Both the position numbers and the translations under genes were made by a program. The notes beneath the pieces were generated by a model. That model made no database searches and was not told the DNA's origin. It worked only from the letters and a program-made list of their open reading frames with translations. Below, piece by piece: positions 1 to 14,260 of a DNA stretch of 14,358 bases; the stretch's first letter is position 1; each line of letters starts with the position of its first letter. This DNA is from a virus (Duplodnaviria; Heunggongvirae; Uroviricota; Caudoviricetes). The stretch lies in IMG/VR virus record IMGVR_UViG_3300030125_000009; one strand, written 5' to 3'.

Positions 1-646
<646 letters not shown>

Positions 647-688
647 TTAGGATATTGATATGAACATCTAAGCACCTCATTACTGTGC

Positions 689-1333
689 TTAAAAGATGTT
701 ATCCTTACCTGTTAATTTACCTTGAGGAACTTTAGTGAGCTCCATCCGATAAAATGCTTTTATCATATTTACAAATGGCTCATATGGTGAATATTCGTTG
801 TCTTGTTTAGTAACGGTGTCTGTCATTGTCCTGATGTAGTCTGCGCTTACCACGTTGTTGTATTCTGTTGCGAAGCAGCATAACAACGTCAGAACATGCT
901 CTGTCGTTATTTCGATCCAGTTGATGTTGAAAAACTCATCGCCTTTTTTATCGTGTTCGGAATCGAAGATGCTTTGGTGGAGGATGTATTTGCCGGATTC
1001 CTTGCGCGGTAACTTGATCGCTTTCTGGCGTTCCAGTTCCTTGTAAATCTGCATTGCTTCAATTAGTACCGGCCTGCCGTTCATGAAGGGATCGCGCAAC
1101 CTTACACGCTGGCCAACTCGACCGGTAATAAAGCTGTTTTCCTCTTCCACCAGCACGATAAAACCCTTTTCCTCTTTTTCTCGCAATTCGCGCAGCAGCT
1201 GGAGTTCCATATCGCGGCGGCGTTCAGGGTAGCTGGTCCGCTCAGCCATTATCAGCTCGTTGTTGATCCATGCAGCAGTCATTGACGCCGGTTTACCGAC
1301 GCTCATCGAAACAACGCATATTTTCTTATCCAT
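689..1333 (-). CDS. Hypothetical protein, 214 aa (position corresponds to P1 mat, not verified)
   Basis: Open frame with ATG at 1333-1331 preceded by GGGGG Shine-Dalgarno (tatagggggcgctATG). The track's longer 263-aa version starts at GTG 1480 with no ribosome-binding site. No motif I recognise. Confidence 0.55.
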   Translation of the reverse strand: MDKKICVVSMSVGKPASMTAAWINNELIMAERTSYPERRRDMELQLLRELREKEEKGFIVLVEEENSFITGRVGQRVRLRDPFMNGRPVLIEAMQIYKELERQKAIKLPRKESGKYILHQSIFDSEHDKKGDEFFNINWIEITTEHVLTLLCCFATEYNNVVSADYIRTMTDTVTKQDNEYSPYEPFVNMIKAFYRMELTKVPQGKLTGKDNIF

Positions 1334-1522
1334 AGCGCCCCCTATAAAAAAGAAAAGCCACCAGCGGCGGCTTAGCAATACAACTGAAGGTAGCGCCCGG
1401 TACTCAGACTGTGCCGTCCATGGAATATTTGAAAAGGGATCCATCCGTACCGGGCATGTGATGATTCTGACTGAAGTCACTTGTCAGTTGTCAATTATTT
1501 CAGATTAAAAATAATATATTTA

Positions 1523-2083
1523 TTAGTGCATGATGTTTGCCATCTCATAGGCGTCAGCCAGCAATTCCATCTCTGACTTGTTCAGCAAGGTGAATTCTTT
1601 CTTGCCTCCAACCACACCATCGGCATGAACGGGGACCAGCCAGGGGTATTTTTCTCTTACTTCAGCCGGTGCTGCATGCTAGTGGTGCCATCTACAAAGG
1701 GGCAATTGCTTTTTGTGACAACCCGGCGCGGTACGACCGGAGATATGGTGCAGAGACACCTCTTCAGATATTACTCCATGCATGTAGCAGGCAATGCAGG
1801 GGAGAGCGCCAAGAGCATTGGCGATGCTCCGTTCCTCCGCTGTCGGTGTTCGCCCCTTCAAGCCACGAGATTTTATCTTTACCGCACTTTTCCGCGTTTT
1901 GCTGGCTGGTGGGCGCTCTTTCTGTTTAGCGATACGACGGTCGATAGAATCCCGCATTTTCTGATATTGCGATTCTCGCCAGGCGGGGTCAGCCAACTTT
2001 TCCCGTTGCCGAGCGATCGCTCGTTCTCTGGCTGCCTTCTGCCACTCGCGGCGCTGTTCAAGTTTTTGTTCGATTGTTTTCAT
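1523..2083 (-). pseudogene. ref: ref (P1 recombination enhancement function, HNH-type nuclease) interrupted by in-frame TAG amber codon at 1681-1679; truncated product 134 aa, full frame 186 codons
   Basis: Translation from ATG 2083 gives MKTIEQKLEQRREWQKAARERAIARQ...CHKKQLPLCRWHH, then TAG, then the same frame continues HAAPAEVREKYPWLVPVHADGVVGGKKEFTLLNKSEMELLADAYEMANIMH to TAA at 1525-1523. The 186-codon total matches the P1 Ref length I recall. Confidence 0.75.
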
Positions 2084-2304: not shown

Positions 2305-2332
2305 AGCCTGGCTCCTTGCCAGGCTTTTTTTT
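2305..2332 (+). terminator. Rho-independent terminator on the plus strand (8-bp stem agcctggc/gccaggct, loop tcctt, T8 run)
   Basis: Hairpin and T-run seen directly; on the minus strand it is preceded by an A-run, so it is unidirectional for plus-strand transcripts. No convincing plus-strand gene lies upstream. Confidence 0.6.
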
Positions 2333-2642
2333 ATTTCATCATGGAAGCTGTTAACGCTTTGGACCTTGCTGAACTGATTGAAAGGGCATTGTTTACCTTA
2401 CCCAGGAGTTCGCCAAATTCCCCCATCACTCTAGTAAGCCCGCGCCGCGCTTCCTCCTCCGTTGCATTCATCACAAAATGTTCAGCACTCCGCATGCTTT
2501 TAACGGGGAACGCAACAGATATCGAGTCGATATCAGGCATCCTATCGCTCAACTTTACGGTGACAATGACAGATGGCGACAGAATATTAGTGCTTACAGA
2601 CAGCACTACATATTTTCCGTCGATGTTGAAATCCTTTCTCAT
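2331..2642 (-). CDS. Hypothetical protein, 103 aa, in the cre-ref intergenic position (position of P1 cra, not verified)
   Basis: ORF with ATG at 2642; a C1 operator match in the same orientation sits just upstream (2659-2675). An antisense plus-strand ORF (2272-2763) overlaps it, so coding strand is not certain; weak ribosome-binding site. Confidence 0.35.
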   Translation of the reverse strand: MRKDFNIDGKYVVLSVSTNILSPSVIVTVKLSDRMPDIDSISVAFPVKSMRSAEHFVMNATEEEARRGLTRVMGEFGELLGKVNNALSISSARSKALTASMMK

Positions 2643-2692: not shown

Positions 2693-3724
2693 CTAATTGC
2701 CATCTTCCAGCAGGCGCACCATTGCCCCTGTTTCACTATCCAGGTTACGGATATAGTTCATGACAATATTTACGTTGGTCCAGCCACCAGCTTGCATGAT
2801 CTCCGGTATTGAAACTCCGGCACGGGCCATATCTCGCGCGGCTCCGACACGGGCACTGTGTCCAGACCAGGCCAGGTACCTCTGTCCAGAGTCATCCTTA
2901 GCCCCGTAAATCAATCGGTGAGTTGCTTCAAAAATCCCTTCTAGGGCGCGAGTTGATAGCTGGCTGGTGGGTGATGGCGAGGCAACACCATTTTTTCTGA
3001 CCCGGCAAAACAGGTAGTTATTCGGATCATCAGCCACACCAGAGACAGAAATCCATCGTTCGACCAGTTTAGTTACCCCCAGGCTAAGTGCCTTCTCTAC
3101 ACCTGCGGTGCTAACCAGCGTTTTCGTTCTGCCAATATGGATTAACATTCTCCCACCGTCAGTACGTGAGATATCTTTAACCCTGATCCTGGCAATTTCG
3201 GCTATACGTAACAGGGTGTTATAAGCAATCCCCAGAAATGCCAGATTACGTATATCCTGGCAGCGATCGCTATTTTCCATGAGTGAACGAACCTGGTCGA
3301 AATCAGTGCGTTCGAACGCTAGTGCCTGTTTTGCACGTTCACCGGCATCAACGTTTTCTTTTCGGATCCGCCGCATAACCAGTGAAACAGCATTGCTATC
3401 ACTTGGTCGCTGCAGCCCGGACCGACGATGAAGCATGTTTAGCTGGCCCAAATGTTGCTGGATAGTTTTTACTGCCAGACCGCGCGCCTGAAGATATAGA
3501 AGATAATCGCGAACATCTTCAGGTTCTGCGGGAAACCATTTCCGGTTATTCAACTTGCACCATGCCGCCCACGACCGGCAAACGGACAGAAGCATTTTCC
3601 AGGTATGCTCAGAAAACGCCTGGCGATCCCTGAACATGTCCATCAGGTTCTTGCGAACCTCATCACTCGTTGCATCGACCGGCAATGCAGGCAAATTTTG
3701 GTGTACGGTCAGTAAATTGGACAT
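2693..3724 (-). CDS. cre: Cre site-specific tyrosine recombinase, 343 aa (variant)
   Basis: Translation MSNLLTVHQNLPALPVDATSDEVRKNLMDMFRDRQAFSEHTWKMLLSVCRSWAAWCKLNNRKWFPAEPEDVRDYLLYLQARGLAVKTIQQH... is Cre. It differs from the canonical Cre I remember at three positions (GVASPSPTSQ versus GVAAPSATSQ; C-terminal GN versus GD). Confidence 0.97.
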   Translation of the reverse strand: MSNLLTVHQNLPALPVDATSDEVRKNLMDMFRDRQAFSEHTWKMLLSVCRSWAAWCKLNNRKWFPAEPEDVRDYLLYLQARGLAVKTIQQHLGQLNMLHRRSGLQRPSDSNAVSLVMRRIRKENVDAGERAKQALAFERTDFDQVRSLMENSDRCQDIRNLAFLGIAYNTLLRIAEIARIRVKDISRTDGGRMLIHIGRTKTLVSTAGVEKALSLGVTKLVERWISVSGVADDPNNYLFCRVRKNGVASPSPTSQLSTRALEGIFEATHRLIYGAKDDSGQRYLAWSGHSARVGAARDMARAGVSIPEIMQAGGWTNVNIVMNYIRNLDSETGAMVRLLEDGN

Positions 3725-3731
3725 TTGACAC

Positions 3732-3953
3732 TCAGATAATGGTTTTAAGTAAAGTGTACAGGATCGGCTCTGCCTTTACCTGTTTATGGTTCTCGTCATA
3801 GAAACGCCAACGACCGCGACTGCGTTCTATCTTTTCTTCACCGCGCGATAATGACAGTTGACAACTATCACGATCAAACCCTTTTGCCCGCCAGTAACCA
3901 CGATTTTTCTCAAGCTCAAGATGAGTGGACACTTTAGCAGCTGAATATCCCAT
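3732..3953 (-). CDS. Hypothetical small basic protein, 73 aa, immediately upstream of cre (stop 7 nt before the cre ATG)
   Basis: ATG at 3953 preceded by AGAGGTGAAAA (good Shine-Dalgarno); product MGYSAAKVSTHLELEKNRGYWRAKGFDRDSCQLSLSRGEEKIERSRGRWRFYDENHKQVKAEPILYTLLKTII is rich in R/K. No homolog recognised from memory. Confidence 0.5.
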   Translation of the reverse strand: MGYSAAKVSTHLELEKNRGYWRAKGFDRDSCQLSLSRGEEKIERSRGRWRFYDENHKQVKAEPILYTLLKTII

Positions 3954-4877: not shown

Positions 4878-5729
4878 ATGATAAATTATGTCTACGGCGA
4901 ACAACTGTACCAGGAGTTCGTCAGCTTCAGGGATCTCTTTCTAAAAAAAGCTGTTGCACGCGCCCAACACGTTGATACAGCCAGCGACGGTCGTCCTGTA
5001 CGCCCGGTTGTCGTTCTACCGTTCAAAGAAACTGACAGCATTCAGGCTGAAATTGATAAATGGACTTTAATGGCGCGGGAACTGGAACAGTACCCAGACC
5101 TCAATATCCCAAAGACTATTTTATATCCAGTGCCTAACATCCTTCGCGGTGTGCGCAAGGTTACAACTTATCAGACAGAAGCTGTGAACAGCGTCAACAT
5201 GACCGCTGGCCGCATTATTCATCTGATTGATAAGGACATTCGCATCCAAAAAAGCGCGGGGATCAATGAGCACAGTGCGAAATACATAGAGAACCTGGAA
5301 GCAACAAAAGAGCTAATGAGGCAGTACCCGGAGGATGAAAAATTCCGTATGCGCGTACACGGCTTTAGCGAAACAATGCTGCGCGTCCATTACATTTCCA
5401 GTAGCCCTAACTACAATGATGGTAAATCAGTTAGTTACCATGTGCCGCTGTGTGGTGTGTTTATCTGCGATGAAACTCTCCGTGATGGAATCATCATCAA
5501 CGGTGAATTCGAGAAAGCAAAATTTAGCCTTTATGACTCTATAGAACCGATCATCTGCGACCGCTGGCCGCAGGCAAAAATATATCGCCTGGCAGATATT
5601 GAAAATGTAAAAAAACAAATTGCCATCACTCGCGAAGAGAAAAAGGTCAAATCAGCCGCATCAGTTACGCGCAGCCGTAAAACCAAGAAGGGGCAGCCAG
5701 TAAACGACAACCCCGAAAGCGCGCAATAA
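4878..5729 (+). CDS. c1: C1 repressor of lysogeny, 283 aa
   Basis: Translation MINYVYGEQLYQEFVSFRDLFLKKAVARAQHVD... at 283 aa matches P1 C1 as I recall it; strong Shine-Dalgarno GGAGGAGG; many copies of its operator are present in the window. Confidence 0.93.
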   Translation: MINYVYGEQLYQEFVSFRDLFLKKAVARAQHVDTASDGRPVRPVVVLPFKETDSIQAEIDKWTLMARELEQYPDLNIPKTILYPVPNILRGVRKVTTYQTEAVNSVNMTAGRIIHLIDKDIRIQKSAGINEHSAKYIENLEATKELMRQYPEDEKFRMRVHGFSETMLRVHYISSSPNYNDGKSVSYHVPLCGVFICDETLRDGIIINGEFEKAKFSLYDSIEPIICDRWPQAKIYRLADIENVKKQIAITREEKKVKSAASVTRSRKTKKGQPVNDNPESAQ

Positions 5730-5761: not shown

Positions 5762-6628
5762 TTATTCAGCCGCCACCGGTTTTAACAAGCCAGCATCGAG
5801 CAGTTTACGCGTCAACCACTGCTGGCCTTTACCCGTTAATTGAGGCGTCAACCGTATCTGGTAGCCATCTTCATCATCCAGCACCACTTCTTTCACCGTG
5901 AAATACCCCGCGTTGATGTACTGCTGGAACGGCACATTTTTACGTCCACCGGACGCTATCAGGATGCCGTTCTCCCGTAACCAGACAAACAGCGCGTTTT
6001 GCTTAAGTCCAACAACCTTTGCAAAATTCCCAATCAGGATCCCTTTAGCTACTGATACCCGGTCGGCAAAATCGACTTTAGGAGCGGCGGCCACCAGCTG
6101 CTGATTTAGCTGGTGGGCTTTCTGTTCCAGAAGCTGCTTTTGTTCAGCCAGTTCGGCAGCCAGGCGCAGAGCTTCTGGAAGCGTCTGGGGGATTGCAACC
6201 GGTTGCTGTTCTTTTTGCCGGAAGTAGCTGTCTTCCAGTTTTTCAAAGAATGCCCATGCCTGATCGGTTTCGAGCATTTTAGCGTGGCGGGCTGCGCCGC
6301 GTTCCGTCCAGAGGATGAGTGAGCGGGCTTTAGGAGAGATAGGATTTTGTGAGTTACTTAAAGTCACCCGCAAATTGTTCAAATCATCTCCAATAACTTT
6401 ATAGAAATGCTTGCCTTCACAAAAACGTTCAGCATTACGGGAAAAGTTCTTCTTGATGTTATCCGCATCTGTCCCATACCCCTTAGCAAGGATCTTAGTT
6501 GTCACTACACGCACTCCCTGCCACTCTAGAACGGGAATTTCATCCGGCTGACTTTGAACAACCACCAGTTCTGATTCCTGAACTAAAGGTGTATTAATTT
6601 TTTCAGATTTAACGTTAGTAGCTTTCAT
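5762..6628 (-). CDS. ant2: Ant2, 288 aa, in-frame internal initiation product of the ant ORF
   Basis: Internal ATG at 6628 (MKATNVKSEK...) has its own strong Shine-Dalgarno AAGGAGG 8 nt upstream, in the same frame as ant1; this mirrors the P1 ant1/ant2 arrangement. Confidence 0.6.
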   Translation of the reverse strand: MKATNVKSEKINTPLVQESELVVVQSQPDEIPVLEWQGVRVVTTKILAKGYGTDADNIKKNFSRNAERFCEGKHFYKVIGDDLNNLRVTLSNSQNPISPKARSLILWTERGAARHAKMLETDQAWAFFEKLEDSYFRQKEQQPVAIPQTLPEALRLAAELAEQKQLLEQKAHQLNQQLVAAAPKVDFADRVSVAKGILIGNFAKVVGLKQNALFVWLRENGILIASGGRKNVPFQQYINAGYFTVKEVVLDDEDGYQIRLTPQLTGKGQQWLTRKLLDAGLLKPVAAE

Positions 6629-6877
6629 TCTGTGTGCCTCCTTGCGTGTTTCGGCTGCGACGGTTGCGTAATTCAGATGCCCCTGTTCGAGCAGGTATTC
6701 ACGGATATCAGACAGCAGGATACGGTGAACAGCGTTCTTGTCCTTTCTCCGGTAAAGTTGTTTGGTGATCATGAAGTAGTTGGCAATAACGCCAGGTATA
6801 TCCCTGGTACTGATACAGGCAGAGTGCTGTTCAATTGCCTCGATCATCTCTTCACGGGTAACTAACGATGTTCTCAT
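5762..6877 (-). CDS. ant1: Antirepressor Ant1, 371 aa (ORF6N/KilA-N-like N-terminal region plus Ant C-terminal domain); a second in-frame start gives Ant2
   Basis: ATG at 6877 preceded by AGGAGGG; the icd stop overlaps it (ATGA). Antirepressor-family domain assignment is from memory of the family, not from a search. Confidence 0.8.
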   Translation of the reverse strand: MRTSLVTREEMIEAIEQHSACISTRDIPGVIANYFMITKQLYRRKDKNAVHRILLSDIREYLLEQGHLNYATVAAETRKEAHRMKATNVKSEKINTPLVQESELVVVQSQPDEIPVLEWQGVRVVTTKILAKGYGTDADNIKKNFSRNAERFCEGKHFYKVIGDDLNNLRVTLSNSQNPISPKARSLILWTERGAARHAKMLETDQAWAFFEKLEDSYFRQKEQQPVAIPQTLPEALRLAAELAEQKQLLEQKAHQLNQQLVAAAPKVDFADRVSVAKGILIGNFAKVVGLKQNALFVWLRENGILIASGGRKNVPFQQYINAGYFTVKEVVLDDEDGYQIRLTPQLTGKGQQWLTRKLLDAGLLKPVAAE

Positions 6878-7095
6878 AGTCCCTCCTGAGCAGAAGCGTT
6901 AACAGGGAGGCACCAGTAACTGAGAGAATTGCGTGAATCAGTGGAAAAACGGGCAGAGAAAATACATGGGGCGTCAGGAAGCTGAGAGCGGGCCTCATCT
7001 TCTGTCGGTGCAATAACGAAGTGATAGTGACGTTTTTGGCAGGAGTAAAAGCGCCAGATAAATTCAGGATGAGTTGGGGTAGGGATAGTAGCCAT
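6874..7095 (-). CDS. icd: Icd-like protein (interference with cell division), 73 aa, translationally coupled to ant1
   Basis: ATG at 7095 preceded by AAGGAGG; product MATIPTPTHPEFIWRFYSCQKRHYHFVIAPTEDEARSQLPDAPCIFSARFSTDSRNSLSYWCLPVNASAQEGL; TGA stop overlaps the ant1 ATG; 73 codons equals the P1 icd length as I recall. Confidence 0.7.
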   Translation of the reverse strand: MATIPTPTHPEFIWRFYSCQKRHYHFVIAPTEDEARSQLPDAPCIFSARFSTDSRNSLSYWCLPVNASAQEGL

Positions 7096-7151
7096 ATTGG
7101 CAGCCTCCTTAGACGTTGGTATGTAACCACCGCAGAAGAGACCAATCTTGC

Positions 7152-7231
7152 TGGCGGTGGACTGTACGGAGTTGGCCTTACTGGCGTCCAAGGTAACCAG
7201 CCTACCCGAAGGTAGCCCCATACAGCCCACC
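7152..7231 (-). ncRNA. c4: Candidate c4-like antisense repressor RNA (about 80 nt, tRNA-like terminal stem, 3' GCCA)
   Basis: On the minus strand, GGUGGGCUGUAU pairs with GUACAGUCCACC as a 12-bp terminal stem, followed by GCCA; internal 5-bp hairpin with UUCG loop; the segment CCUUGGACG is complementary (9 bp, one G-U) to CGUCUAAGG, which overlaps the icd ribosome-binding site. Boundaries are approximate. Confidence 0.45.
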
Positions 7232-7260
7232 ATTGTAGAGGTGTGCGTGTACGCCGATAC

Positions 7261-7283
7261 AAAAAAAAGACGCGAGCGGCGTC
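7261..7283 (-). terminator. Rho-independent terminator downstream of pacB (hairpin GACGC-CGCUC-GCGUC plus U8)
   Basis: Hairpin followed by an 8-U run on the minus strand, about 150 nt after the pacB stop. Confidence 0.6.
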
Positions 7284-7414
7284 TGTATCGCCTTAGACTT
7301 AAGCGGGAGGCCAATCCCGGCACCCGTTTTAATGAGGTGCCTGATAAGCATAAACCGAAAATGCCTCAAGGCGCAAGAGGTCAGGTTCAATGTAACATCG
7401 GCAGTTAAAAAACA

Positions 7415-7431
7415 CAATTTATTAGAGCAAA
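7415..7431 (-). promoter_or_regulatory. C1 operator (Op51-like, 15/17 match) directly after the pacB stop and upstream of the c4-icd-ant module
   Basis: Minus strand TTTGCTCTAATAAATTG. Confidence 0.65.
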
Positions 7432-7434
7432 TAT

Positions 7435-8919
7435 TCATTCATTAAGCCATGCCAGAGCTTCATCAACCTGCGCTTCGTCTTCGACGCTAAGCACTTCATC
7501 TTGGGGAACATAATCCGCCAGCATAGCGAAACAATATGTATCCCAATGGTCTGGTGAGTGCAGGTTGAGTTTTTTCTTCATATCCTCCTTACTCATCACC
7601 TTCCATTGACCTGCGGAGTTAATCCCTACAGGGATTTTCGACGCTTCCTCAATAGTTTCATTACCCTTATCCAGTCTCATACGACCAGATTTTACGGCCT
7701 CTGCGGCTTGAACGTTGGCATAAGCACGTTTATCAAAGTACAGGCTCTTATCTTCACGGCTATGCATCTTTTTACCCCAGCGTATACGCTGTACGGTAAT
7801 ACCATAATACTCGTACATCAGATCCGCCGTTGCTTTACCCAGGCCATCGCCGTCTATCGCTATGGTAATATTTGGGAATCGCTCAGGATTACATTCTGCG
7901 AAAATTTTGGCGGCAAGCTGCGTTTCTGTAACGTCTGTGTATTCCAGCATTCGATAGTTGATTACACGGCGTTTATTTCTCTGGCCGGACACCATCATGA
8001 TATTGATAACGGACTTATCCCTTCCCGTACCACCAGCAACGTCCACACATGCAAGCCAGCCCCATCCTTTGGCAATCTTGACTTTCCGCCGCGTTGCACG
8101 TTCAACCTCATCACGTCCAAGAAGGAAGCCATCCTGTGATTTAGGGAATAGGCCGCGTACCTTAATCATGTACATAGGGTTATCGCGCCCGCCGTACTCC
8201 GCCAGCTTCATTTTGATAAATGCTGGCGTTACCAGCGGTGATTCCTCACTGTTAAGCGTGATCGCCGTATAAACGCCATCAGGGTTACCAGGACGCTTGG
8301 CCAGTTTATGGTGAGTATCGTAGAAATAGCCGCTTGGGCGTGTAGGCTGTGACAGTAATAAGATGCGGTTATCCTGTCCGGTAAGAGCACCGGTGATGAT
8401 ACCGAAAGCTCTATCACTGACACCGGAGGCTTCATCGATAATATACAGAAGATGATCTGCGTGTTCACCGGCGAGAGCTTCTTCACTTCCCAGACGAAAG
8501 CCCTTCGGTACTACAGTCCATACACCTTTACCAGTAACCTCATAGAAAGCGGTTTCTGTCAGAACAAAATAATCAGCAAGCCACGGAAAACGGCTGGTGG
8601 CCGTAGCCCAGTTTATCTTGATGTACTTGAATATACCGGTCATTACCTGCTGAATTTTGTTCGCAACGATAATGGCGCGGGCACCGGGATACATGATTAT
8701 GAACAACATGATCATGATAGAAGTCATGTCTGATTTCCCGGTACCGTGACCAGACGAAACAGATGTCTTGCTACCCTGTTCCTGCACAGACTCAATAATC
8801 AGATCCTGCTGCCAGGTAGGTGTTTTGCCGAACAAAACATCAGCGGCAGCAATCCAGTCATAACGATATAGCGCCACCAGCTCGCGCCAACGTGGATCCG
8901 TTACGCAACTTCTGGCCAT
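7435..8919 (-). CDS. pacB: PacB, pacase (terminase) large subunit, 494 aa
   Basis: Translation [22 protein letters not shown]...; size and position (after pacA, start overlapping the pacA stop as TAATG) match P1 pacB. Confidence 0.9.
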
Positions 8920-10112
8920 TAATCATCATCCCCGTATAGCTTGCGGGTAACTTCTTCGTCTTCCTCCTCGTCTTCGTCCAGGTCTTGTTCCAGCCATGGG
9001 TCGTTTGATACACCTTCAGTATCAACATCTCCATAACCGCCTGTATCAACGATATCGGCGATTTCTTCCCTACGCTGCTCAATCCACAATGCGGCATCGG
9101 CGCGGCGGTTGGCGGCCCGTTCTCGCGCAACTTTGTCCAGATCTTCAAGAGAAGGGCCACCGACGGCTGTTTGCCTTTCCTCATCATCGGTATTGGTCTT
9201 AGGAGCACGCAGATCGGCTTTGATTTGCTCCAGCATCAGGGGCGGCACTTTTCCGCCATGCGCCTCGATGAATTCAGCTGCTTCCAGCACTGACCAGTTA
9301 TTTTCACGCTTTCGTTCGTATGCCAGCTTAACAATGCCAGCTTGCCCCATAGACAAAGCGTGCTTTTCCGCCTCCCGGCTTTCTTTTCGATAGTTATTCC
9401 GGATGCTGTAAATGGTGTTGATCAGGCTGCTTATCTGCGCGGAACAGCTGTTTAGCATGCTCGCGATACGGTATTCAGGCGGAGTACCTTCATCATCGTC
9501 TTTTTGCTGATCGCGCATTTCCTGCACCAGGCGAATACACGTATCCCTGGCGTTCTCCAGCATAAGGAGATGAGAAAGAGACTTTTCCAGAAGAGTGGTT
9601 TCCAGAACATCGGCCCCGGACCGACGCAACATAGCGCGCGCGGCCTTCCGCGCTTCAACGTTATCTATCAGGTAATCGCCAGCTTCGAATTCAAAGCGTT
9701 CACCATCATCATCCAGGGTGTCGCGTTCCAGGCGATCACGTAAGGTCCGGTGGGCGCGGGTGATCACGTCATGATCATCTGAACGATCATTTATGCGCTT
9801 ATTTTGGCGCTTCGCATTATCGACTGCGGCACTGACAACGGCATTAACTCTTTGTTTTTCATCCATTTCAGCCACAACGTGATCACCTGCACGTTGATCA
9901 TTAGCGTGATCAATGATCATGCTTTTTAGTGGTTTCCTGACAGGCTTATTTGGCTTACGGCTGTCCGCTGTTCCGGTGTCTTCTTTGAATGCACGGAGAT
10001 AACGACGTGCGGTGTTTGGGTTGAGATTAAACTCGGCGGCATATTGTGCGATGGTGTAACCACCATCTCGCGCCAGGCGAGCAAAATTCTTCTTGTGATC
10101 GTCCCAGGTCAC
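8919..10112 (-). CDS. pacA: PacA, pacase small subunit, 397 aa, with the pac site inside its coding sequence; GTG start
   Basis: Translation (V/M)[41 protein letters not shown]... with acidic C-terminal tail; GTG start preceded by AAGGAAG and an in-frame TAA just upstream. Confidence 0.9.
9734..9919. other. pac: pac packaging site: two clusters of TGATCA/GATC hexamers (Dam sites) within pacA
   Basis: TGATCA at 9761, 9772, 9880, 9895, 9907 and 9914, plus CGATCA at 9733 and 9785, flanking a spacer of about 90 bp; matches the known P1 pac architecture. Confidence 0.8.
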
Positions 10113-10198: not shown

Positions 10199-10651
10199 TC
10201 AGATACGTGCGGATGTGGCATTACCGTAATGACGGTGCTGACGGACCACCTTATTGAAAAATTGACGCGCCATTACCCAAGGCTGGTGCTCCCGGCGTTC
10301 CTTTTCGTCCTGCGTCATATAGAGTTCGTTCTGGAGTTTTTCATCAAACCGGCGCGGAGCGCGACTGCGGCGAAAGAATTCAGGATTCAGAGAGTGGATC
10401 TGAAATCTACGTGGGCGTGTACTGTCATCAATCAAAACAGACGAATACTTAGACACAGCGATAGCCTTTAAGCGCAGATAAACATCGCGCTTATCGACAT
10501 CCAGATGCGGGTATTCCTTTTCAAGAATTGCTGCGAGTTCTTTCGCTGATAGAAGAGATTTAGTGCGGATCATGTAATCCGCAATCTCGTACGATGTTAT
10601 TCGTGAGTGATTTATTTCCATGAAGTGGCGTCCCTGCCAGTTAAGTAACAT
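10199..10651 (-). CDS. lpa: Lpa (late promoter activator, gp10)-like protein, 150 aa
   Basis: Position immediately upstream of pacA; a C1 operator lies in its promoter region; Shine-Dalgarno AGGTGACAGG before the ATG. Identity is by synteny and size, not sequence recall. Confidence 0.7.
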   Translation of the reverse strand: MLLNWQGRHFMEINHSRITSYEIADYMIRTKSLLSAKELAAILEKEYPHLDVDKRDVYLRLKAIAVSKYSSVLIDDSTRPRRFQIHSLNPEFFRRSRAPRRFDEKLQNELYMTQDEKERREHQPWVMARQFFNKVVRQHRHYGNATSARI

Positions 10652-11994: not shown

Positions 11995-12375
11995 CTACTC
12001 CGCAGAACCATACAATCTACGTAACGTGTCGGCGACAGAAGATACAGATATCTCGCCAGTCGCAGCGCCTACAGTAAGGTCTGCCAGTTCAGGTGAATCA
12101 AATACCTGCACCCCGTTACGGCGTAGAAATAGCAGCGCGCTGTTTAGCGCGGTACGCTTATTGGCATCATTGAATATATGCCCTCTCGCTGTAGCCACCA
12201 GGTAGGTGGCGGAGACTTCGAAAAGGTCGGTGATCTCTTCGTAGGCAACTCTGGCCTGAACTCTCCCGATAATGGCCTCTGCCCTACCCGGATCTGACAT
12301 TCCCGGCAGGCCGCCGTAGCGGCTTATATTCGCATCATGAAGCGCAATAAGTTCTTCCGGTGATATATGCCTCAT
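11995..12375 (-). CDS. doc: Doc toxin (Fic-fold kinase), 126 aa
   Basis: Translation [92 protein letters not shown]... is P1 Doc; start overlaps the phd stop (TAATG). Confidence 0.95.
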
Positions 12376-12596
12376 TATCGGTTAACCAGTTCCTTGTTGG
12401 TGGAGTCCAGGGTGTCAAACAGGGATGCAAATTCAGCATCCAGCGCCGCTTTTTTGTAGGCTTCGAAAGTAGCCTTGCTGACAATTACTGCTGGCTCACG
12501 ACCTCTGCGGGTGATTTCAACCTCTTCCCCGGCTTCAACATTGTTGAGCACTTCAGAAAGGTTGCCGCGCGCGGTACGGAAGTTAATGGATTGCAT
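12375..12596 (-). CDS. phd: Phd antitoxin, 73 aa
   Basis: Translation [73 protein letters not shown]; true start is ATG 12596 with GAGGTG Shine-Dalgarno (the track begins 2 codons upstream at GTG). Confidence 0.95.
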
Positions 12597-12605
12597 AAAC
12601 ACCTC

Positions 12606-12772: not shown

Positions 12773-14260
12773 ATGAAAATGACAAGTATTCAACAACGTG
12801 CAGAGCTTCATCGTCAAATCTGGCAAATTGCTAACGATGTCAGGGGTTCGGTCGATGGATGGGATTTTAAGCAATACGTTCTGGGCGCACTTTTCTACCG
12901 TTTTATCAGCGAAAATTTTTCCAGTTATATTGAAGCCGGTGATGACAGTATCTGTTATGCGAAACTGGATGACAGCGTAATTACTGATGACATTAAAGAC
13001 GATGCCATCAAAACTAAAGGCTACTTCATCTACCCCAGTCAGCTTTTCTGCAACGTAGCTGCGAAAGCAAATACCAATGACAGACTGAACGCAGATTTAA
13101 ACAGCATCTTCGTTGCTATCGAAAGTTCTGCTTACGGCTACCCTTCAGAAGCAGACATCAAAGGTTTGTTTGCTGATTTCGATACCACCAGTAACCGCCT
13201 GGGTAACACCGTTAAAGATAAAAATGCCCGCCTGGCTGCGGTTCTGAAAGGGGTTGAAGGGTTAAAACTTGGTGACTTCAACGAACATCAGATTGACCTG
13301 TTCGGTGATGCCTATGAGTTCCTGATTTCTAACTATGCGGCAAATGCCGGTAAGTCAGGCGGTGAGTTCTTTACACCGCAGCACGTCTCCAAGCTGATTG
13401 CACAACTGGCTATGCACGGGCAGACCAACGTTAACAAAATCTACGACCCGGCAGCGGGTTCCGGCTCACTGTTGTTGCAGGCTAAAAAGCAGTTTGATAA
13501 CCATATCATCGAAGAAGGCTTTTTTGGTCAGGAAATCAACCATACAACCTATAACCTGGCACGTATGAACATGTTTTTGCACAACATCAACTACGACAAG
13601 TTTGATATCAAGCTGGGTAATACACTGACTGAGCCACACTTCAGAGATGAAAAACCGTTTGATGCCATCGTTTCTAACCCGCCGTATTCGGTGAAATGGA
13701 TTGGCAGCGATGACCCGACGCTGATTAACGATGAACGTTTTGCCCCGGCTGGCGTCCTGGCCCCCAAATCCAAAGCTGACTTTGCGTTTGTACTACATGC
13801 GCTGAACTATCTTTCGGCCAAAGGTCGTGCTGCGATTGTCTGCTTCCCGGGTATTTTTTACCGTGGCGGCGCGGAGCAGAAAATCCGTCAGTATCTGGTC
13901 GATAATAACTATGTCGAAACCGTGATTTCACTGGCACCGAACCTGTTCTTTGGCACCACTATTGCTGTAAACATTCTGGTGCTGTCTAAACATAAAACGG
14001 ATACCAAAGTTCAGTTTATTGATGCCAGCGAACTGTTCAAAAAAGAAACCAACAACAATATCCTGACCGATGCCCATATCGAACAGATTATGCAGGTATT
14101 TGCCAGCAAGGAAGATGTTGCTCATCTGGCGAAATCTGTTGCGTTTGAGACTGTTGTCGCGAATGACTATAACCTGTCGGTGAGCAGCTATGTGGAAGCG
14201 AAAGATAACCGCGAAATTATCGATATCGGTGAGCTGAATGCAGAGCTGAAAACCAGGTGA
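12773..14260 (+). CDS. hsdM: Type I restriction-modification N6-adenine DNA methyltransferase subunit HsdM, 495 aa, 3' end truncated by IS1
   Basis: N-terminus [25 protein letters not shown]..., AdoMet-binding motif [10 protein letters not shown] and catalytic NPPY motif (VSNPPYS). The stop codon TGA at 14258-14260 lies inside the IS1 terminal inverted repeat. Confidence 0.88.

What the first reader, a model, noticed from the sequence alone, without database searches (positions are those of the whole stretch)
689..1333. 214-aa protein of unknown function adjacent to the IS5 insertion
A well-initiated ORF (GGGGG Shine-Dalgarno) lies immediately downstream of ref in the same orientation, and IS5 is inserted about 40 bp after its stop. 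I recognise no motif in it. In P1 this position is mat, followed by the restriction-modification region, so the IS5 insertion marks a variable, defence-associated neighbourhood.
Basis: partly seen in the sequence, partly recalled or inferred. Interest (0 to 1): 0.35.

Follow-up and report, generated by a model that had tools for sequence, protein, structure and literature searches.

The report
Phage P1 mat (particle maturation) gene
The 214-residue "unknown" protein is the well-known but poorly understood Mat (particle maturation) protein of a P1-type phage-plasmid; it is an ordinary conserved gene, and structure prediction suggests that it looks like the DNA-cutting domain of a phage terminase.

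Summary
An intact 214-aa ORF lies on the minus strand (689-1333), with a GGGGG Shine-Dalgarno. An IS5 end lies 42 bp past its stop. The ORF is the P1 gene mat: 99.5% identical to Mat of P1 isolate OP279344 and 87% to reference P1 Mat, with the same ref-mat order and the same operator and promoters.

No Pfam, NCBIfam, PADLOC or PDB sequence match exists. Two AlphaFold models (pLDDT 74.5 and 80.2) both match large-terminase nuclease domains in Foldseek (RNase H-like fold, E about 1e-4, TM about 0.5). The canonical strand-1 aspartate is Ser9, so nuclease activity is doubtful.

In 7 of 7 distant relatives mat heads the baseplate-wedge operon. In one of them it directly follows a PacB-type terminase.

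My best reading is a non-virion late assembly factor derived from a terminase nuclease domain; the mechanism is inferred.

Side findings:
- a conserved terminator-like leader just upstream of mat;
- an over-extended 250-aa reference annotation;
- a mosaic junction in the mat 3' end;
- an amber codon in ref.

Interest is low to moderate.

The parts
689..1333 (-). mat coding sequence (214 aa). Residues 1-160 form the predicted RNase H-like (terminase-nuclease-like) domain; residues 161-214 form a variable, low-confidence tail.
   Evidence: ORF. Identity to P1 Mat. phrog_1837. AlphaFold models. Foldseek.
1338..1342 (-). Shine-Dalgarno GGGGG, 4 nt before the ATG.
   Evidence: Sequence. The G-run length varies by 1 nt among P1-clade elements.
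1346..1373 (-). Terminator-like hairpin (1355-1373, AAGCCGCCGCTGGTGGCTT) plus T-run (1346-1354), in the mat leader 12 nt upstream of the start codon.
   Evidence: Scan. An equivalent hairpin plus T-run lies 10-25 nt before the mat start in window/P1, L011, L012, L005, L006, L007 and L009, with different stem sequences.
1394..1456 (-). Conserved 5' leader domain. A 10-bp closing stem (GCCCGGTAC...GTACCGGGC) encloses two small hairpins and starts about where the annotated Pmat/LPmat transcript starts.
   Evidence: Alignments: nearly invariant in 34 distinct leaders, including clades whose Mat is 70% and 53% identical. There is one compensatory pair and several wobble changes, so covariation support is weak.
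1464..1494 (-). Pmat (sigma-70: -35 TTGACA at 1489-1494, -10 at 1464-1469) overlapping the late promoter LPmat (-22 element at 1474-1482).
   Evidence: Transferred from the P1 reference annotation. The sequence is identical to P1 at these elements.
1515..1532 (.). C1 repressor operator Omat.
   Evidence: P1 annotation; the sequence is identical in the window.
689..850 (-). Mosaic 3' part of mat. DNA identity to reference P1 falls from about 96% to about 42% near codon 160-165; megablast homology to reference P1 stops at window 824.
   Evidence: The tail region has pLDDT below 60.
1..646 (.). Right-hand part of an IS5 element, cut by the window start; terminal inverted repeat at 631-646.
   Evidence: (IS5 hits).
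647..650 (.). IS5 target site TTAG.
   Evidence: Uninterrupted relatives L002 and L004 read ...GAGAGTTAGGATATTG.... ISKpn26 sits at the homologous TTAG in pE189-1.
1523..2083 (-). ref (RecA-dependent nuclease) gene, upstream neighbour of mat, here interrupted by an amber codon (CAG->TAG, codon 135, window 1679-1681).

Best explanation
SHOWN. The ORF is the mat gene of a P1-type phage-plasmid. It encodes a 214-aa protein. It sits behind the same C1 operator, sigma-70 promoter and Lpa-dependent late promoter as in P1, so it should be expressed both early after derepression and late.

PREDICTED. Residues 1-160 fold as an RNase H-like domain whose closest structural relatives are the nuclease domains of large terminases. 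Residues 161-214 form a variable tail.

INFERRED. Mat is a non-virion assembly factor that descends from, or mimics, a terminase nuclease domain. It acts at the last step of particle formation, on the DNA/portal end of filled heads or on the terminase complex itself, so that particles become infectious. The strand-1 catalytic aspartate is replaced by Ser9 and the third carboxylate is Asn138 in P1. I therefore favour a DNA- or portal-binding 'control' role over canonical two-metal cleavage, while the invariant acidic pair E63/E64 leaves residual metal-dependent chemistry possible.

My confidence by layer: identity about 0.98; fold assignment about 0.75; this mechanism about 0.3.
For: Identity:
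- 99.5% to OP279344 Mat and 87% to reference P1 Mat.
- megablast synteny with ref and mat; phrog_1837 at E=5e-104; NCBI name 'maturation control protein'.
- Operator and promoter elements are identical to annotated P1.

Fold:
- Two independent AlphaFold runs gave pLDDT 74.5 and 80.2, with residues 1-160 at 84-95 in the second.
- In both PDB searches and in the BFVD viral-structure search, the top Foldseek hits are terminase nuclease domains: G20c, P74-26, P22, D6E, E217, SPP1, T4 gp17 and HCMV UL89, at E 6e-5 to 1e-2, probability about 1.0, TM 0.43-0.53 over 165-180 columns.

Conservation:
- The family has 155 clusters at 50% identity.
- In a 76-member alignment (A4), positions 63/64 at the end of strand 4 are essentially always acidic; G131, W139, Y135 and Y97 are conserved.

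Links to packaging:
- In locus L008 the mat homologue overlaps by 4 nt the stop of a PacB-type large terminase.
- P1 pacAB is likewise under a C1-controlled early promoter plus a late promoter.

Genetics from the literature:
- P1 annotation 'maturation control'.
- mat is listed as essential on the basis of Lehnherr et al. [quoted passage not shown]
- Mat is not mentioned in the main text or the one held supplementary file of the P1 virion proteome paper PMC9024508.
Against: - The similarity to terminase nuclease domains is at fold level only. There is no Pfam terminase hit for any of 76 family members, no PDB sequence hit and no hhalign signal against PacB. TM scores are near 0.5.
- The model coordinates could not be superposed, so residue equivalences rest on secondary-structure order and spacing.
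- The strand-1 aspartate is absent family-wide (S/T/C/A at position 9) and D138 is N in P1.
- PacB is already a full-length terminase with its own C-terminal domain, so no nuclease domain is missing.
- In 7 of 7 non-P1 loci mat is the first gene of the baseplate-wedge operon, which points at least as much to tail assembly.
- The classical phenotype does not say whether heads or tails are defective (Walker & Walker 1983, recalled from memory; paper not held).
Confidence: 0.5

Rival explanations
1. Mat is a baseplate or tail assembly factor (a non-structural chaperone or assembly catalyst, or a low-copy baseplate component). It would be needed for tails that look normal but cannot join heads or inject DNA.
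For: In all seven loci examined outside the P1/P7 clade (Mat identity 17-70%), mat lies immediately upstream of a gp25-like wedge gene (phrog_1269), followed by phrog_1722, phrog_1906, phrog_1767, phrog_1390, a hub gene and a PAAR gene. Mat's stop overlaps that wedge gene's start by 4 nt in five of these loci. P1 PmgA is the gp25-like wedge protein (PMC9024508).
Against: - The predicted fold is that of a nucleic-acid enzyme, and no baseplate protein appeared among the Foldseek hits.
- In P1 itself mat is about 30 kb from pmgA-bplA (gene order from my memory of the P1 map).
- In L008 mat is equally coupled to the large terminase.
- mat has an early C1-controlled promoter, which the structural operons do not (annotation).
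Confidence: 0.25
2. Mat is an active RuvC-/terminase-like structure-specific nuclease. It would trim or debranch replicated or recombining DNA (possibly the products of the neighbouring Ref nuclease), or cut the packaged end, as a functional analogue of the T4 gp4 head-completion nuclease or T4 gp49.
For: - RNase H-like fold, with poxvirus RuvC-like resolvases also among the hits.
- Near-invariant acidic pair at the end of strand 4, and D138 in 62% of the family.
- A Ref-like gene lies within 3.3 kb upstream of mat in P1, L005, L006, L007, L011 and L012, and is the immediately adjacent gene in P1, L005, L006 and L007.
Against: - The strand-1 catalytic Asp position is S/T/C/A throughout the family, and P1 Mat has N138.
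- No homology to T4 gp4 or gp2 (hhalign probability 1-4%).
- ref is dispensable and is a pseudogene in this very element, while mat is intact.
Confidence: 0.12
3. Mat is an accessory defence or anti-defence cargo gene of the variable region next to the IS5, or a transcriptional 'control' protein.
For: It borders a variable cargo region. Its C-terminal 50 residues are hypervariable. It carries the historical name 'maturation control'.
Against: - It is conserved as a single-copy core gene in P1-like phages down to 17% identity, in a fixed position.
- No PADLOC hit.
- No DNA-binding regulator domain.
- Essential by amber genetics according to the literature cited.
Confidence: 0.04

Closest known systems
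Bacteriophage P1 Mat (gene mat, P1_gp006, YP_006475.1; Mat of P1 isolate OP279344, UYD72407.1)
   Same: Same gene. 213 of 214 residues are identical to UYD72407.1 and 87% to the reference protein. The position downstream of ref is the same, as are Omat, Pmat and LPmat.
   Different: - The last ~50 residues belong to a different allele from reference P1 (about 45% identity; DNA about 42%).
- One unusual substitution, I140 (S in the other P1-clade alleles), lies next to the conserved [DN]W motif.
- The reference record annotates a 250-aa product starting 37 codons upstream, which I consider over-extended.
Nuclease (C-terminal, RNase H-like) domain of large terminases, e.g. G20c TerL (5M1F), P22 gp2 (4DKW), T4 gp17 (3CPE)
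   Same: Predicted fold and order of secondary-structure elements, including a beta-hairpin before the last helix. An acidic residue sits at the end of strand 4. The spacing between strand 1 and that acidic residue (54-55 residues) is as in terminases (terminase residue numbers recalled from memory).
   Different: - Mat is free-standing, with no ATPase domain.
- There is no sequence-profile similarity.
- The strand-1 Asp is replaced by Ser, and the third carboxylate is Asn in P1.
- P1 has its own complete terminase, PacB.
T4 gp4 (head completion/'head closure', reported to be a nuclease; Benler et al. 2020, from memory) and T4 gp2 (DNA end protector)
   Same: Small non-capsid proteins needed for the last step that makes filled heads join tails or be infectious. 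They are encoded next to baseplate genes (T4 order 3-2-4-53-5). This is an analogy of role only.
   Different: No detectable homology: hhalign probability 4% for gp4 and 1-2% for gp2 and its family profile. The T4 genes are transcribed divergently from the baseplate genes.
RuvC-like Holliday junction resolvases (e.g. poxvirus A22-type, 5E6F and 6P7A)
   Same: RNase H-like core; weaker Foldseek hits (E about 1e-2, probability 0.92-0.95).
   Different: Only about 115 columns align, and the catalytic strand-1 Asp is not conserved in Mat.

Membership tests
P1 Mat / 'maturation control protein' (phrog_1837) | Full-length sequence similarity to P1 Mat | tested here: met
   99.5% and 87% identity; phrog_1837 E=4.8e-104 over residues 1-213; database names.
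P1 Mat / 'maturation control protein' (phrog_1837) | Position downstream of ref on the same strand, behind Omat / Pmat / LPmat | tested here: met
   The operator, -35, -22 and -10 elements are identical to reference P1.
P1 Mat / 'maturation control protein' (phrog_1837) | Loss of function gives a particle-maturation defect | not testable with these tools
   Literature only: plus Walker & Walker 1983 from memory.
Large-terminase nuclease domain (RNase H-like) | Three-dimensional fold | tested here: met
   Predicted models only. Foldseek top hits are terminase nuclease domains in three searches.
Large-terminase nuclease domain (RNase H-like) | Sequence-profile membership (Pfam terminase C-terminal families, or similarity to PacB) | tested here: not met
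   No Pfam hit for 76 family members; hhalign versus PacB gave probability 0.6%; no PDB sequence hit.
Large-terminase nuclease domain (RNase H-like) | Catalytic carboxylate triad (strand 1 Asp, strand 4 Asp/Glu, C-terminal Asp) | tested here: not met
   Position 9 is S/T/C/A. Positions 63/64 are acidic in essentially 100% of members. Position 138 is D in 62% and N in P1. The mapping uses secondary-structure order, not superposition.
Large-terminase nuclease domain (RNase H-like) | Fusion to an N-terminal packaging ATPase | tested here: not met
   The proteins are free-standing, 200-230 aa, throughout the family.
T4 gp2 DNA end protector (PF26869) | Profile similarity | tested here: not met
   No PF26869 hit. 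Profile-profile probability 1.4%; only a short IDWSxVK-like motif is shared.
Known anti-phage defence systems (PADLOC) | Match to any defence-system protein model | tested here: not met
   No hit at E<=1.

The most novel reading that the evidence does not exclude
Mat is a free-standing, catalytically remodelled copy of the terminase nuclease domain that controls the hand-over from DNA packaging to head completion and tail joining in P1-like phages. Its expression, and in relatives that of the whole baseplate operon, would be gated by a conserved leader terminator, implying an unrecognised attenuation or antitermination step in P1-type late gene expression.
Probability: 0.25. Interest if true: 0.55.

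Novelty: already known. Interest (0 to 1): 0.25.

Why it matters
As submitted, the finding is an ordinary, already named gene of a very well-known phage, so it matters little. The by-products are of modest value to phage biologists. Mat is listed as an essential P1 morphogenesis gene, yet none of the few held papers that mention it gives it a molecular function. A testable lead now exists: a terminase-nuclease-like fold, an invariant E63/E64 pair, and linkage to both the terminase and the baseplate wedge operon. The corrected start codon and the conserved terminator-containing leader bear on P1 annotation and on how P1 regulates this gene.

Tried and rejected
- Pfam, NCBIfam and PADLOC scans of the protein gave nothing. 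Pfam on 76 family members gave nothing meaningful.
- A PDB sequence search with the family profile gave only chance hits; chromodomain hits at E 0.4-1 match a short xVDxxxDxxGxxxYxIxW hairpin motif.
- Idea that Mat supplies a nuclease domain missing from the P1 terminase: rejected. PacB matches the terminase large-subunit PHROG over residues 33-474, and its C-terminus weakly resembles the P22 and E217 terminase nuclease ends.
- hhalign of the Mat family against PacB gave no signal.
- Homology to the T4 gp2 DNA end protector or the gp4 head-completion protein: rejected. The IDWSQ[LV]K resemblance to gp2 is a short motif only.
- The 250/263-aa longer ORF: rejected. Family members align from their residue 1-5. 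The extension overlies a terminator hairpin. 1-nt indels in the G-run just before the ATG put the upstream ATG out of frame in many P1-clade elements.
- An Rfam scan of the leader found no family.
- The viral-contig scan returned only close P1-clade loci, so the covariation test of the leader remained weak.
- Łobocka 2004, Walker & Walker 1983 and Lehnherr 2001 are not held in the library.
- The exact source of the window (this mat allele with IS5 at this site) was not found in the plasmid collection (PLSDB) or in complete E. coli genomes.

Full report
OBSERVATION. The window is a P1-type phage-plasmid read in reverse orientation relative to the P1 reference map. It contains the following features.

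- a partial IS5 at 1-646;
- mat at 689-1333 (-) and ref at 1523-2083 (-);
- c8 at 2331-2642 (-), cre at 2693-3724 (-) and cra at 3732-3953 (-);
- c1 at 4878-5729 (+);
- pacB at 7435-8919 (-), pacA at 8919-10112 (-) and lpa at 10199-10651 (-);
- an hsdM gene at the far end.

It runs 1333->689 on the minus strand and encodes 214 aa. GGGGG lies at 1338-1342, 4 nt before the ATG, and the stop is TAA at 689-691. The IS5 inverted repeat ends at 646 and is followed by TTAG.

IDENTITY. Megablast against phage records puts the region on mat and ref of P1 and P1-like phages. The protein differs at 1 of 214 residues from Mat of P1 isolate OP279344. It is 87% identical to reference P1 Mat (YP_006475.1), with all divergence in the last ~50 residues. 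It matches phrog_1837 end to end (E=4.8e-104), and dozens of database clusters that NCBI names 'maturation control protein'. The annotated C1 operator Omat, the sigma-70 promoter Pmat and the late promoter LPmat of P1 are base-for-base identical in the window. That is what is found.

WHICH START. The reference P1 record annotates 250 aa from an ATG 37 codons upstream (window 1444). I support the 214-aa start for four reasons.

1. Distant family members align from their own residues 1-5 to residue 1-4 of the short form.
2. The extension overlies a terminator-like hairpin and T-run.
3. Among 34 distinct P1-clade leaders the G-run just before the ATG varies by 1 nt. In many elements this throws the upstream ATG out of frame.
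4. Gene-caller extensions in homologues are in different frames.

NCBI's current models also use 213-214 aa.

WHAT IS KNOWN. The P1 record calls the product 'maturation control'. A genome-wide CRISPRi study lists mat as essential according to the literature. It cites Lehnherr et al. [quoted passage not shown] Its own knock-down gave an efficiency of plating (EOP) of 0.28, and it counts mat among five known essential genes missed by the screen. From memory, since the paper is not held: Walker & Walker 1983 defined gene 1 as the single 'particle maturation' gene, with a defect 'either in the head or in the tail'. The P1 virion proteome paper does not mention Mat in its main text or in the one supplementary file held. 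Among the few held papers that mention mat, none gives it a molecular function.

FAMILY AND CONTEXT. A profile search of 1.84 billion representatives finds 155 clusters (E<=1e-3), nearly all free-standing proteins of 200-230 aa. No member hits a meaningful Pfam family, and the profile finds no solved structure by sequence.

I looked at seven loci outside the P1/P7 clade, with Mat identity of 17-70%.

- In every one, mat lies immediately upstream of a gp25-like baseplate wedge gene (phrog_1269), which is followed by other tail, baseplate and spike genes, with a PAAR gene in three of the loci. In five of the seven, mat's stop overlaps that gene's start by 4 nt.
- A Ref-like gene lies directly upstream or within 3.3 kb upstream in five of the seven.
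- L007 also has a C1-type repressor and a Cre-like integrase, so these are distant P1-like phages.
- In L008 the gene directly upstream, again overlapping by 4 nt, is a PacB-type large terminase carrying an intein (phrog_5902 and phrog_2).

In P1 itself mat has been separated from the baseplate genes and is followed by variable cargo.

STRUCTURE. Two AlphaFold2 runs used an 11-sequence and a 34-sequence alignment. They gave mean pLDDT 74.5 and 80.2. In the second run residues 1-160 scored 84-95 and all five models scored 77-80. Residues 161-214 are of low confidence.

Each time it puts large-terminase nuclease domains at the top: G20c, P74-26, P22, D6E, E217, SPP1, T4 gp17 and HCMV UL89, plus many annotated terminases. 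The scores are E 6e-5 to 1e-2, probability about 1.0 and TM 0.43-0.53 over 165-180 columns. Weaker hits go to other RNase H-like folds such as poxvirus RuvC-like resolvases and the MutS connector. The element order is b1 3-9, b2 16-23, b3 26-34, a1 39-55, b4 59-63, a2 89-102, a hairpin at 123-137, then a3 144-157. This is the RNase H/terminase-nuclease order.

In the family alignment, positions 63/64 at the end of strand 4 are essentially always acidic. G131 is invariant, and W139, Y135 and Y97 are conserved in more than 85% of members. Position 138 is D in 62% but N in P1. The strand-1 position where RuvC and terminases carry their first catalytic Asp is S/T/C/A (S9 in P1). PacB is itself a full-length terminase, so Mat does not replace a missing domain. 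No sequence-level link to PacB was detectable.

MECHANISM (inferred). I think it most likely that Mat is a non-virion late assembly factor built on a terminase-nuclease-like domain. It would act on the DNA/portal end of filled heads or on the terminase complex. It probably works through binding rather than canonical two-metal cleavage, because the triad is incomplete.

Circumstantial support:
- direct coupling to the large terminase in L008;
- pacAB, like mat, has both a C1-controlled early promoter and a late promoter;
- the precedent of T4 gp2 and gp4, which are needed for the final head step and are encoded beside baseplate genes. This is analogy only, since homology was tested and not found.

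The strongest rival is a baseplate or tail assembly role, which the 7-of-7 operon linkage supports. An active debranching or trimming nuclease is a third option. A defence or regulatory role is disfavoured. I put identity at about 0.98, the fold at about 0.75, and the favoured mechanism at about 0.3.

NEIGHBOURHOOD. Beyond mat, reference P1 has convergent EcoP1 res/mod. OP279344 and the CX04 plasmid have an EAL-domain gene and an HTH gene, neither of which hits PADLOC. pE189-1 has a GTP pyrophosphokinase gene. L012 carries a Tad2-like gene between ref and mat.

The boundary of the variable DNA lies inside mat. Identity to reference P1 drops from about 96% to about 42% near codon 160-165, exactly where the confident fold ends. 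The Mat tail therefore travels with the cargo alleles.

pE189-1 has a different IS5-family element (ISKpn26) at the homologous TTAG behind a different mat tail allele, which suggests an insertion hot spot. What lies beyond the IS5 in this element is outside the window. This exact arrangement was not found in the plasmid collection (PLSDB) or in complete E. coli genomes.

LEADER (side finding). Between the annotated transcription start and the ATG lies a ~124-nt leader. It has a strongly conserved 5' domain closed by a 10-bp stem (window 1394-1456), then a GC-rich hairpin plus T-run (1346-1373) ending 12 nt before the ATG. The 5' domain is nearly invariant even in clades whose Mat is only 53-70% identical. 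It shows one compensatory and several wobble changes, which is weak covariation. A terminator-like hairpin directly before the mat start is present in all seven lineages that have an intergenic region, with unrelated stem sequences. No Rfam family matches. Transcripts reaching mat, and in relatives the baseplate operon, must read through this signal. This suggests attenuation or read-through control, or a short leader RNA. It is untested.

VERDICT. The feature is the already known P1 mat gene, so the finding as posed is ordinary (interest 0.25). The most novel reading still open is a remodelled free-standing terminase nuclease domain with a gated leader. I give it about 0.25 probability and 0.55 interest if true.

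Noticed in passing
window 1679-1681 (ref, 1523-2083, minus strand): ref carries an in-frame amber codon (CAG->TAG at codon 135 of 186). This truncates the RecA-dependent nuclease within its Pfam PF16786 domain, so ref is probably a pseudogene in this element, while mat next to it is intact.
   Followed up: yes
window 1346-1456 (minus strand); also L011, L012, L005, L006, L007 and L009 just upstream of their mat homologues: Conserved mat leader: a 5' structured domain plus a terminator-like hairpin and T-run ending 10-25 nt before the start codon in every lineage that has an intergenic region. No Rfam match. Possible attenuator or short leader RNA.
   Followed up: partly
window 1334-1444 (minus strand); NC_005856 mat 2716-3468: The 250-aa Mat annotation of reference P1 is probably 37 codons too long. 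The extension overlies the hairpin, and 1-nt indels in the G-run before the true ATG break its frame in many P1-clade elements.
   Followed up: yes
window 689-850: There is a sharp mosaic junction inside the 3' end of mat (identity to reference P1 falls from 96% to about 42%). The C-terminal ~50 residues are hypervariable among otherwise near-identical Mat proteins and are predicted with low confidence. The tail alleles appear to travel with the adjacent cargo region.
   Followed up: partly
window 631-650; L003 (pE189-1) about 6620-6640: IS5 here and the related ISKpn26 in pE189-1 are inserted at the homologous TTAG just past mat, although the flanking mat-tail alleles differ. This suggests independent hits on an insertion hot spot.
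   Followed up: partly
window 5762-7438: Relative to reference P1, where c1 directly abuts pacB, about 1.7 kb is inserted between c1 and pacB. It encodes a KilAC/ORF6N antirepressor and small ORFs; the corresponding segment in pE189-1 is annotated as Icd-like and Ash-family genes.
   Followed up: no
window 12773-14260 (+), next to putative doc/phd (11995-12602, minus strand): A type I restriction-modification methylase gene (HsdM: N6_Mtase plus HsdM_N) lies at the right end of the window. It is a second defence-type cargo locus in this element. The doc/phd assignment rests on position and size only.
   Followed up: no
L008 5473-8004: In a distant P1-like contig the PacB-type large terminase carries an intein (Hint and LAGLIDADG homing-endonuclease domains), and its stop overlaps the start of the mat homologue.
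   Followed up: partly
window residue 140 of Mat (codon at 914-916): This allele has Ile at position 140, directly after the conserved [DN]-W motif, where the other P1-clade alleles have Ser.
   Followed up: no
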